Positions 14,833 to 16,876 of a DNA stretch of 64,000 nt are shown here, piece by piece. The notes under the pieces are model-generated. The model made no database searches and was not told the origin of the DNA. It was given only the letters and a program-made list of their open reading frames with translations. The position numbers were made by a program, and so were the translations under genes. Within the stretch, counting starts at the first letter, position 1; every line of letters starts with the position of its first letter. Location: NCBI RefSeq assembly GCF_054482525.1, contig NZ_CM137006.1. One strand, given 5' to 3'.

Positions 14833-15091
14833 TTATTGAGACAGGACTTTCTTATGATTACACATTTTCGTCAAGCCATAGAAGAAACGCTGCCCTGGCT
14901 TTCCTCTTTTGGCGCTGACCCAACGGGTGGGATGACCCGTTTACTTTATTCGCCGGAATGGCTGGAAACTCAGCAGCAATTTAAAAAAAGAATGGCAGCA
15001 AGCGGGCTGGAAACACGTTTCGATGAAGTGGGGAATTTATATGGTCGCCTGAGTGGCACCGAATATCCACAAGAAGTGGTTCTGAGCGGTT

Positions 15092-15100
15092 CGCATATCG
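15092..15100. repeat. 9-bp target-site duplication (left copy) CGCATATCG
   Basis: Identical 9-mer directly flanks both ends of the IS1. Confidence 0.9.
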
Positions 15101-15155
15101 GGTGATGCTGCCAACTTACTGATTTAGTGTATGATGGTGTTTTTGAGGTGCTCCA

Positions 15156-15431
15156 GTGGCTTCTGTTTCTATCAGCTGTCCCTCCTGTTCAGCTACTGAC
15201 GGGGTGGTGCGTAACGGCAAAAGCACCGCCGGACATCAGCGCTATCTCTGCTCTCACTGCCGTAAAACATGGCAACTGCAGTTCACTTACACCGCTTCTC
15301 AACCCGGTACGCACCAGAAAATCATTGATATGGCCATGAATGGCGTTGGATGCCGGGCAACTGCCCGCATTATGGGCGTTGGCCTCAACACGATTTTACG
15401 TCACTTAAAAAACTCAGGCCGCAGTCGGTAA
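15156..15431 (+). CDS. insA: IS1 InsA
   Basis: 91-aa [46 protein letters not shown]... (zinc-finger plus HTH), recognised IS1 InsA. Confidence 0.9.
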
Positions 15432-15853
15432 CCTCGCGCATACAGCCGGGCAGTGACGTCATCGTCTGCGCGGAAATGGACGAACAGTGGGGCTATGTCG
15501 GGGCTAAATCGCGCCAGCGCTGGCTGTTTTACGCGTATGACAGTCTCCGGAAGACGGTTGTTGCGCACGTATTCGGTGAACGCACTATGGCGACGCTGGG
15601 GCGTCTTATGAGCCTGCTGTCACCCTTTGACGTGGTGATATGGATGACGGATGGCTGGCCGCTGTATGAATCCCGCCTGAAGGGAAAGCTGCACGTAATC
15701 AGCAAGCGATATACGCAGCGAATTGAGCGGCATAACCTGAATCTGAGGCAGCACCTGGCACGGCTGGGACGGAAGTCGCTGTCGTTCTCAAAATCGGTGG
15801 AGCTGCATGACAAAGTCATCGGGCATTATCTGAACATAAAACACTATCAATAA
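15350..15853 (+). CDS. insB: IS1 InsB (transposase C-terminal frame, expressed as InsAB' by frameshift)
   Basis: 167-aa ORF overlapping insA in -1 frame; recognised IS1 InsB sequence. Confidence 0.9.
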
Positions 15854-15868
15854 GTTGGAGTCATTACC

Positions 15869-15877
15869 CGCATATCG
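15869..15877. repeat. 9-bp target-site duplication (right copy) CGCATATCG
   Basis: See left copy. Confidence 0.9.
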
Positions 15878-16876
15878 ATACCGTGGTTAACGGCGGTAAC
15901 CTCGACGGGCAATTCGGCGCGCTGGCGGCGTGGCTGGCAATTGACTGGTTGAAAACGCAATACGGCGCGCCGTTACGTACGGTCGAAGTGGTGGCGATGG
16001 CAGAAGAAGAAGGCAGCCGCTTCCCGTATGTCTTCTGGGGCAGTAAAAATATCTTTGGGCTGGCGAATCCTGACGACGTGCGGAATATCTGTGATGCCAA
16101 AGGAAATAGTTTTGTCGATGCGATGAAGGCTTGCGGATTTACTCTGCCGAACGCCCCACTAACTCCGCGTCAGGATATTAAAGCCTTTGTCGAACTGCAT
16201 ATCGAACAGGGCTGTGTGCTGGAAAGTAATGGGCAGTCAATTGGCGTGGTGAATGCAATTGTCGGGCAGCGTCGTTATACGGTGACGCTGAATGGCGAAT
16301 CAAACCATGCAGGCACCACGCCGATGGGTTATCGTCGTGATACGGTTTACGCTTTCAGTCGCATTTGCCATCAGTCGATCGAAAAAGCGAAAAAGATGGG
16401 CGACCCGCTGGTGCTGACCTTTGGCAAGGTGGAGCCGCGCCCGAATACGGTGAATGTGGTACCGGGTAAAACCACGTTCACCATTGATTGTCGTCATACC
16501 AACGCTGCCGTGCTGCGCGATTTCACCCAGCAGTTAGAAAACGACATGCGGGCGATTTGCGATGAAATGGACATTGGTATTGATATCGATTTATGGATGG
16601 ACGAAGAACCCGTGCCGATGAATAAGGACCTGGTCGCCACCCTGACAGAATTGTGTGAAAGAGAAAAACTGAATTACCGGGTGATGCACAGTGGTGCCGG
16701 GCACGACGCGCAAATTTTCGCGCCTCGCGTACCAACCTGCATGATTTTTATCCCCAGCATCAACGGGATCAGCCATAACCCGGCGGAACGCACCAATATT
16801 ACCGACCTTGCCGAAGGGGTCAAAACGTTGGCACTCATGCTTTATCAACTTGCCTGGCAGAAATAAGGAGTCATAA

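What the first reader, a model, noticed from the sequence alone, without database searches (positions are those of the whole stretch)
14836..16866. IS1 insertion disrupts allC (allantoate amidohydrolase) inside the allDCE operon
A complete 768-bp IS1 with perfect 9-bp target duplication (CGCATATCG) splits allC after codon ~89, which indicates a fairly recent insertion. AllC is needed to convert allantoate to ureidoglycine, so anaerobic use of allantoin as nitrogen source should be lost. The insertion is in the operon's orientation and may be polar on allE, unless the IS provides read-through or outward transcription. The rest of the allantoin regulon (allB, allA, allR, allS, gcl, glxR, glxK and the fdrA-ylbE-ylbF-ybcF cluster) is intact.
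Basis: partly seen in the sequence, partly recalled or inferred. Interest (0 to 1): 0.5.

Follow-up and report, generated by a model that had tools for sequence, protein, structure and literature searches.

The report
IS1 in an allC insertion hotspot
A complete IS1 mobile element has recently knocked out the allantoin-pathway gene allC in this E. coli strain, which is ordinary, but it sits at exactly the same nine bases that IS1 has hit independently in at least nine other E. coli lineages and in a laboratory evolution strain.

Summary
A 768-bp IS1 (window 15101-15868, + strand) with a perfect 9-bp target duplication (CGCATATCG) interrupts allC. Counted from the annotated ATG at 14854, it lies after nt 247, inside codon 83, not codon ~89.

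Removing the IS1 and one duplication copy gives an allC 100% identical to the intact gene of E. coli PCN033. PCN033 differs from the window by only 5 SNPs and 2 single-base indels over 64 kb. None of 5,426 complete E. coli genomes has this insertion, so it is recent and strain-specific. A null allC allele blocking allantoate breakdown is the expected result. Polarity on allE is plausible but makes no difference to the pathway, because AllE needs AllC's product.

The new point is that the same nine bases carry IS1 in many unrelated backgrounds:
- both orientations occur;
- different IS1 variants are involved;
- at least 8 natural flank haplotype/orientation combinations exist;
- an engineered IS1 that transposed on its own in IS-free K-12 MDS42 landed there too.

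Two further insertions lie 2 and 5 bp away. This is an IS1 hotspot, and I found no report of it. Why the site is preferred is unresolved: it is not AT-rich, has no good IHF site and does not resemble the IS1 ends. It has only partial dyad symmetry.

Overall: an ordinary gene knockout at a noteworthy target site.

The parts
13783..14832 (+). allD (ureidoglycolate dehydrogenase), first gene of the allD-allC-allE operon; ORF intact, with a strain-specific P196S change at nt 14368
14854..15100 (+). allC 5' fragment (nt 1-247). The ORF reads one Gly codon across the junction and stops at the TGA at 15103-15105, giving an 83-aa product
   Evidence: NF006768 allantoate deiminase, profile positions 1-82
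15092..15100 (.). left copy of the 9-bp target-site duplication CGCATATCG (allC nt 239-247)
15101..15868 (+). complete IS1 (768 bp), same orientation as allC. Inverted repeats 15101-15123 and 15846-15868; insA 15156-15431; A6C frameshift site 15407-15413; insB' frame to 15853; promoter-like site for insA in the left inverted repeat at 15108-15135
15869..15877 (.). right copy of the target-site duplication CGCATATCG
15878..16866 (+). allC 3' fragment (nt 248-1236). The first in-frame start is GTG 15883, with no nearby Shine-Dalgarno sequence
   Evidence: NF006768, profile positions 86-411, 659 bits
16877..17662 (+). allE ((S)-ureidoglycine aminohydrolase), 10 bp after the allC stop, with its own AGGAG ribosome-binding site. 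It probably depends on transcription coming through allC::IS1
15087..15100 (.). left half of the hotspot core. In the uninterrupted gene, allC nt 234-253 read CGGTTCGCATATCGATACCG, a partial dyad (CGGT...ATAT...ACCG, 12 of 20 positions symmetric) centred on the duplication. Neighbouring IS1 targets at nt 234-242 (strain ES3) and from nt 241 (L047) fall inside it
   Evidence: the dyad was read directly from the sequence

Best explanation
An intact, common IS1A-type IS1 transposed by simple insertion into allC of a PCN033-like E. coli and made the usual 9-bp duplication.

Consequence (inferred): the insertion splits the gene inside the conserved SGSH-I-D motif after codon 82, leaving an 83-aa stub and an untranslated 3' part. 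This is a null allele. Allantoate made by AllB can no longer be deaminated, so the two ammonia-releasing steps (AllC, AllE) and the whole oxamate branch (AllD, AllFGH, AllK) get no substrate. Anaerobic growth on allantoin as nitrogen source should be lost. allE transcription is probably reduced by polarity, but that adds nothing to the phenotype.

Target choice (shown by comparison): the insertion point is not random. allC nt 239-247 is a preferred IS1 target used repeatedly and independently, in both orientations and by different IS1 variants, across E. coli. The window is one more recent hit.

Why the site is preferred (inferred, weak): a favourable, partly symmetric target with G/C at the duplication ends and an ATAT core, flanked by CGGT/ACCG.
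For: Structure and recency. Absence from 5,426 complete genomes.

Recurrence:
- The exact 83-aa stub encoded in the window is found on contigs whose flanks are only 96.5-97.6% identical to the window, yet they carry the IS1 left end at the identical nucleotide.
- Strains 1008S19 and NCTC9967 have the same duplication with IS1 inverted. Their IS1 copies are 99.7% and 95.1% identical to the window's.
- The K-12-type stub is indexed in 48 blocks of the collection, with both orientations and a variant left end.
- Analysis of 3.2 kb of left flank gives at least 8 natural haplotype/orientation combinations.
- In L008, a flank SNP lies 28 nt from the junction, which argues against transfer of one allele.

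Laboratory event: the engineered IS1-YK2X8 was placed at gpmA-galM in IS-free MDS42 and left to transpose autonomously (PMC12065110). It sits at the same site with the same duplication.

Neighbouring hits at nt 234-242 and from nt 241.

Pathway logic: PMC12535856 and PMC7417836.
Against: - No phenotype or expression data exist.
- No reads were available to verify the two junctions in this particular genome.
- Hotspot strength cannot be quantified. I searched only for this site, in a very large collection, and only 2 of 5,426 complete genomes carry IS1 at exactly this site.
- The site shows none of the classical IS1 hotspot features: it is not AT-rich, the best IHF-consensus match is 7 of 9, and similarity to the IS ends is no better than in 10% of genomic windows.
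- The MDS42 assemblies may all descend from one event.
- 1008S19 and NCTC9967 share a flank haplotype, so they may represent one insertion followed by IS1 gene conversion.
Confidence: 0.85

Rival explanations
1. There was a single ancestral allC::IS1 allele. It spread among lineages by descent or homologous recombination, so there is no hotspot.
For: 1008S19, NCTC9967, L030 and L031 share a flank haplotype. L006/L007 differ from the window only at allC nt 78 within the 247-nt allC left arm. Right flanks are unknown for most short-read contigs.
Against: Both orientations occur, including on the same flank haplotype: L018 is - and L021 is +. IS1 variants differ by 5%. The window's flanks equal PCN033, and the L006/L007 flank equals ETEC4091. 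Both of those strains have an empty site. L008 has a SNP 28 nt from the junction. An engineered IS1 landed there in an IS-free laboratory strain.
Confidence: 0.04
2. Recurrence reflects selection for loss of allC rather than target preference. Many random insertions occur, and only allC knockouts are retained.
For: allC is inactivated by other routes too:
- a K45-stop allele is indexed in 269 blocks of the collection;
- IS1 sits at other allC positions, or has made IS1-bounded deletions, in ETEC4091, FORC_031, K-12 J53, and CFSAN061761/TW01221 (by offset inference only for this pair);
- fdrA/allF is also broken in several carriers.
Against: Selection for a knockout would accept any of about 1,200 positions and cannot explain reuse of the same nine bases. 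The MDS42 event arose under selection for fluorescence in minimal medium, with no role for allantoin. Selection may still help such alleles persist.
Confidence: 0.08
3. The IS1 is an assembly artefact (a chimeric join or a collapsed repeat) in this genome.
For: IS1 is a multicopy repeat, and no reads are available.
Against: There is a perfect 9-bp duplication at both ends. The gene halves are colinear and the reconstituted gene is exact. The same junction was assembled independently in many other genomes, including complete long-read ones.
Confidence: 0.03

Closest known systems
IS1 (IS1A/IS1R type) simple insertion that inactivates a gene
   Same: 768 bp, about 23-bp imperfect inverted repeats, insA and insB' with the A6C frameshift, a 9-bp duplication, and 100% identity to annotated IS1A-family copies.
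   Different: Nothing about the element itself differs. It is a textbook IS1.
Classical IS1 insertion hotspots (pBR322, lacZ) and the general IS1 preference for AT-rich 8-9-bp targets (PMC10359306; the older work is recalled from memory)
   Same: The same 9-bp target is reused in both orientations. The duplication has G/C at its ends and an A/T core.
   Different: The site is chromosomal, inside a coding sequence of average composition (43-55% AT locally). It has no good IHF consensus and no significant resemblance to the IS ends. I found no report of it.
IS elements with defined targets: IS1397 in REP palindromes (a copy lies in this same window), IS5 (YTAR), IS10 (symmetric consensus)
   Same: Highly reproducible insertion point. 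There is partial dyad symmetry around the target.
   Different: IS1 is regarded as loosely specific. No consensus explaining this site has been defined.
IS-driven metabolic gene loss in Shigella and host-restricted E. coli (Hawkey et al. 2020, PMC7373316)
   Same: A catabolic pathway is inactivated by IS1, with parallel loss in several lineages.
   Different: The window has only one IS1 in 64 kb and is a PCN033-like E. coli, not an IS-expanded lineage. That paper's main text does not mention allC or allantoin.
E. coli AllC, allantoate amidohydrolase (PDB 1Z2L, 2IMO, 4PXD)
   Same: The reconstituted protein matches over residues 1-411 (E = 3e-284).
   Different: Here the gene is split after codon 82, so no full-length enzyme can be made.

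Membership tests
IS1 family insertion sequence | Length about 768 bp with about 23-bp imperfect terminal inverted repeats | tested here: met
   15101-15868 is 768 bp. Inverted-repeat pair I1 is 80% complementary.
IS1 family insertion sequence | insA and insB' ORFs joined by a -1 frameshift at an A6C motif, giving a DDE transposase | tested here: met
   NF033558 hits both ORFs, with InsB' at 143.7 bits against a cutoff of 100. A6C is at 15407, and the 232-aa fusion is identical to an experimentally active IS1 transposase.
IS1 family insertion sequence | 8-9-bp direct duplication of the target | tested here: met
   CGCATATCG abuts both ends. Removing one copy restores the intact allele.
IS1 family insertion sequence | Transposition activity of this particular copy | not testable with these tools
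   Only inferred from the intact sequence and the recent insertion.
allC (allantoate amidohydrolase/deiminase) of the allD-allC-allE operon | Sequence membership in the AllC equivalog family | tested here: met
   NF006768: the 3' fragment scores 659 bits against a cutoff of 532, and the 5' fragment aligns to profile positions 1-82. The reconstituted gene is identical to WP_001366469.1. It matches PDB 1Z2L.
allC (allantoate amidohydrolase/deiminase) of the allD-allC-allE operon | Operon context: allD, allC and allE on the same strand with short gaps, divergent from fdrA/allF | tested here: met
   The gaps are 21 and 10 bp. The operon is described in PMC12535856.
allC (allantoate amidohydrolase/deiminase) of the allD-allC-allE operon | Loss of enzyme activity and of growth on allantoin in this strain | not testable with these tools
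   Inference from the truncation at codon 82 of 411.
Transposon insertion hotspot | Independent insertions at the same nucleotides in unrelated backgrounds | tested here: met
   At least 8 natural flank haplotype/orientation combinations plus one laboratory event.
Transposon insertion hotspot | Insertion frequency at the site well above the genome average in an unselected assay | not tested
   There is only the single MDS42 observation.
IHF/AT-rich type IS1 hotspot (classical description) | AT-rich region and/or an IHF consensus next to the target | tested here: not met
   Site-centred AT content is 0.43-0.55 against a gene mean of 0.48. The best match to WATCAANNNNTTR is 7 of 9.

The most novel reading that the evidence does not exclude
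allC nt 239-247 (CGCATATCG within CGGTTCGCATATCGATACCG) is a true sequence- or structure-determined IS1 hotspot. It is far more specific than the 'loose AT-rich' rule now accepted for IS1. A roughly 20-60-bp fragment of it would be enough to attract IS1 in any context. That would give a defined substrate for working out how the IS1 transposase selects targets, and it would explain part of the recurrent loss of allantoin catabolism in E. coli.
Probability: 0.55. Interest if true: 0.5.

Novelty: new member of a known kind. Interest (0 to 1): 0.35.

Why it matters
For this strain, the finding predicts a simple, testable metabolic defect: no nitrogen can be recovered from allantoin, and allantoate should accumulate.

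More generally, IS1 is one of the most active elements in E. coli and Shigella, and its target choice is considered loose. A chromosomal site hit again and again at the same nucleotides, in nature and in a laboratory strain, offers three things:
- a convenient natural substrate for studying IS1 target selection;
- a caution against reading shared IS positions as shared ancestry in IS-based typing and phylogeny;
- a partial explanation of why allC is so often a pseudogene.

Tried and rejected
- Similarity of the target region to the IS1 ends. The best local score was 10 (GCTGGCAATTGACTGGTT against the left inverted repeat). About 10% of 209-bp windows in the window do as well, so I rejected it.
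- AT-richness of the site. It is average for the gene.
- IHF consensus. Only 7 of 9 matches.
- An outward or hybrid promoter at the right IS1 end, or an allE promoter. Nothing was predicted on the + strand between 15136 and 17800.
- Junction scans of JGI metagenome contigs, for the right and the left junction. Both gave 0 hits.
- Look-up of the window's 327-aa C-terminal ORF. It is not on record. The NCTC9967-allele version gave only two contigs, one of which showed a neighbouring insertion starting at nt 241.
- Literature searches for allC or allantoate together with IS1. Nothing relevant turned up. There was no mention in the Shigella IS paper or in the main text of the MDS42 IS1 paper, and that paper's supplements are not held.
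- 'Partial' AllC N-terminal fragments ending at nt 240-242, 246-247 and 265-266 in several haplotypes. I considered them as extra junction evidence but set them aside. The contigs end in native sequence without IS bases. A common SNP at nt 267 was not seen in my loci, and mixed-strain assembly forks cannot be excluded.
- Clustering of window-specific SNPs in the allantoin gene cluster (3 of 5). My hand binomial estimate gives p of about 0.19, which is not significant.

Full report
**What is in the sequence**

Window 15101-15868 is a complete 768-bp IS1 on the + strand. It begins GGTGATGCTGCC and ends GAGTCATTACC, with imperfect terminal inverted repeats. It carries insA (15156-15431) and the insB' frame (to 15853). 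Both ORFs hit the NCBIfam IS1 transposase model. The A6C frameshift motif is at 15407. The conceptual -1 frameshift product is 232 aa and, apart from its GTG start, identical to the transposase of an experimentally active engineered IS1. The DNA is 100% identical to many chromosomal and plasmid copies annotated as IS1A family. IS1 itself occurs in 4,970 of 5,426 complete E. coli genomes, with a median of 11 places per genome.

The element is flanked by CGCATATCG at 15092-15100 and 15869-15877, and these are the only two occurrences in the window.

**What it interrupts**

The flanks are the two parts of allC. The 5' fragment aligns to positions 1-82 of the allantoate deiminase equivalog NF006768, and the 3' fragment to positions 86-411 at 659 bits.

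Removing the IS1 and one duplication copy gives a 1236-bp gene identical at every base to the intact allC of E. coli PCN033. That protein matches the solved E. coli AllC structures 1Z2L, 2IMO and 4PXD end to end.

The annotated start is the ATG at 14854. The finding's start, 14836, is an upstream in-frame TTG. The break is therefore after nt 247, inside codon 83 of the SGSH-I-D motif. The stub is 83 aa: 82 native residues, one Gly, then TGA.

**How recent the insertion is, and the strain background**

Across the whole 64-kb window, the sequence differs from PCN033 in four ways:
- five SNPs;
- two single-base indels;
- the IS1;
- a second insertion at 39903-41334.

Eleven complete genomes are at least 99% identical over 16000-28000, and none carries the IS1. 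No complete genome among the 5,426 has either junction as a contiguous match. The insertion is therefore specific to this strain or a very shallow sub-lineage.

I could not examine reads. An assembly artefact is nevertheless very unlikely, given the perfect duplication, the exact reconstitution, and the independent assembly of the same junction elsewhere.

**Expected consequence (inferred, not tested)**

In the published pathway, AllB opens allantoin to allantoate. AllC and then AllE each release ammonia and yield ureidoglycolate. That compound feeds either the oxamate branch (AllD, AllFGH, AllK) or the glycerate branch. allC and allE are in the allD operon, which is activated by AllS (PMC12535856). 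In K-12, deletion mutants of allC and allE recover more slowly from long nitrogen starvation (PMC7417836).

A stub of 82 of 411 residues cannot be an enzyme. The 3' part has no start codon with a ribosome-binding site: its first in-frame start is GTG 15883. The strain should therefore be unable to draw nitrogen from allantoin and should accumulate allantoate.

On polarity, the scan found the insA promoter inside the left inverted repeat. It found no promoter-like site pointing out of the right end, and none ahead of allE. IS1 is classically strongly polar (established knowledge, not tested here). Reduced allE expression is therefore likely. Because AllE uses AllC's product, this adds nothing to the pathway phenotype.

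**'The rest of the regulon is intact'**

This holds at the ORF level. Every gene from ybcF/allK to allS has the same length as in PCN033.

Three of the five SNPs against PCN033 are missense changes in this cluster:
- AllD P196S;
- AllG(YlbE) P401S;
- AllS E162D.

The two Pro-to-Ser changes are unique to the window among all haplotypes I sampled. This fits relaxed selection after the block at AllC, but the numbers are too small to show it.

**The unexpected part: the site is used again and again**

I looked up the exact 83-aa stub in the large protein and contig collection. This returned contigs L006, L007 and L008. In all three the IS1 left end abuts the same nucleotide, yet their flanks are only 96.5-97.6% identical to the window. 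L006 and L007 have the flank haplotype of strain ETEC4091, whose own IS1 lies elsewhere in allC. L008 has yet another haplotype, with a SNP only 28 nt from the junction.

Among complete genomes, 1008S19 and NCTC9967 have IS1 at the same nine bases with the same duplication, but inverted. Their IS1 copies are 99.7% and 95.1% identical to the window's.

The K-12-type version of the stub is indexed in 48 blocks of the collection. The loci show both orientations, a variant left end (GGTAATGCTGCC), and opposite orientations on one and the same flank haplotype (L018 and L021).

Grouping 3.2 kb of left flank gives these combinations:
- window (+);
- L006/L007 (+);
- L008 (+);
- L028, on a K-12 flank (+);
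- the NCTC9967 group (-);
- L026 (-);
- L027/L032 (-);
- L021 (+, variant IS1);
- L029 (-), which may be separate.

**A laboratory event at the same site**

Loci L012-L016 and L023 come from roughly 4.0-Mb assemblies with K-12 flanks. The inserted element there carries a PLtetO promoter, a fused transposase gene, tetR and an rfp gene. This is IS1-YK2X8 from Kanai et al., NAR 2025.

In that study one copy was placed at gpmA-galM in IS-free MDS42. Further copies accumulated by autonomous transposition under selection for fluorescence (PMC12065110). The allC copy has the same CGCATATCG duplication. This event owes nothing to allantoin metabolism or to natural population history.

By my own rough estimate, about a thousand insertions spread evenly over about 4 Mb would hit one pre-specified site with probability of order 10^-4.

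**Neighbouring insertions and other lesions in allC**

Two further IS1 insertions lie within the same few bases:
- ES3 has the duplication CGGTTCGCA at nt 234-242, in - orientation;
- L047 has its right junction at nt 241.

Other IS1 events in allC exist at nt ~213, nt ~390 and nt 537, and probably at nt ~366 (offset inferred from two BLAST pieces in CFSAN061761 and TW01221; locus not fetched). Two of these are IS1-bounded deletions.

allC is also lost by a K45-stop allele that is indexed in 269 blocks of the collection. Several IS1 carriers also have a broken fdrA/allF. Loss of this pathway is therefore common. Selection may help such alleles persist, but selection cannot explain reuse of identical nucleotides.

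**Why this site?**

This is unresolved.
- The site is not AT-rich.
- Its best match to the IHF consensus is 7 of 9.
- Its resemblance to the IS1 ends is matched by 10% of random genomic windows.
- The duplication does fit the old rule of G/C at the ends with an A/T core.
- It sits at the centre of a partial dyad, CGGT-TCGC-ATAT-CGAT-ACCG (read from the sequence). That would suit a symmetric transposase complex and would fit the use of both orientations. This is a hypothesis only.

Current literature describes IS1 targets as loosely conserved and AT-rich (PMC10359306). I found no paper linking IS1 with allC. The searchable library lacks most of the older subscription literature.

**Limits**

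- I searched for this site specifically, in a collection of billions of proteins, so I cannot give a rate relative to other sites.
- Only 2 of 5,426 complete genomes carry IS1 at exactly this site.
- The MDS42 assemblies may descend from one event.
- Most short-read contigs show only the left junction.
- Two scans of JGI metagenome contigs found nothing.
- A set of 'partial' AllC fragments whose contigs end at nt 240-242, 246-247 and 265-266 in native sequence remains unexplained. I did not use them as evidence.

**Verdict**

As a gene knockout it is ordinary. What raises it somewhat above ordinary is that the insertion point is a recurrent, apparently unreported IS1 hotspot, with natural evidence and one laboratory observation.

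Noticed in passing
window 39903-41334: A 1432-bp IS1397 (IS3 family; ORFs at 40762-41292 and 39935-40657 on the - strand) is inserted into the loop of a REP palindrome (GGATAAGGCGTTT|ACGCCGCATCCGG) with a 4-bp duplication GTTT. It is absent at this site in PCN033, which has 6 identical copies elsewhere. This is a second strain-specific IS insertion in the window.
   Followed up: partly
window 10589, 14368, 29090: Three of the five SNPs against PCN033 are missense changes in allantoin-cluster genes: AllG/YlbE P401S, AllD P196S and AllS E162D. 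The two Pro-to-Ser changes are unique to the window among all haplotypes sampled. This may reflect relaxed selection downstream of the allC block. The clustering is not statistically significant.
   Followed up: partly
window 44717-64000 (- strand): A type I secretion locus: a 391-aa HlyD-type adaptor, a 720-aa ABC permease/ATPase, and a giant BapA/SiiE-like adhesin gene (a 4960-aa ORF at 48055-62937, continued by a second ORF from 62913). PCN033 annotates both the adhesin and the adaptor as frameshifted. The window differs by single-base indels at 45355 (adaptor ORF intact here) and 62968, and by two missense SNPs in the adhesin.
   Followed up: no
L048-L051 (allC of other E. coli): A widespread allC nonsense allele (K45 to stop, leaving a 44-aa stub and an otherwise full-length gene) is indexed in 269 blocks of the collection. 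allC is a common pseudogene in E. coli by routes other than IS1.
   Followed up: partly
L009, L028-L031 (fdrA/allF upstream of allC::IS1): Several lineages carrying IS1 at the allC hotspot also have fdrA/allF disrupted: an internal stop in 1008S19, and split ORFs of 102+434 aa or 269+317 aa in others. This suggests stepwise decay of the oxamate branch.
   Followed up: no
L033-L045 (contig ends in allC): Many contigs from different flank haplotypes and different assemblers end in native allC sequence at nt 240-242, 246-247 or 265-266, with no IS bases. The cause is unknown. Possibilities are mixed-strain assembly forks or further junctions nearby.
   Followed up: partly
L002 (FORC_031 and related ETEC genomes), L011 (K-12 J53): These carry IS1-bounded deletions with one end in allC: fdrA to allC nt ~213 in FORC_031-type strains, and allC nt 537 to ybbP in K-12 J53. 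The J53 deletion removes the rest of the allantoin cluster.
   Followed up: partly
window 15426-15436 and 15894-15904: An exact 11-nt match (CGGTAACCTCG) links the IS1 interior, just after the insA stop, to allC 17 bp downstream of the insertion site. It is probably chance.
   Followed up: no
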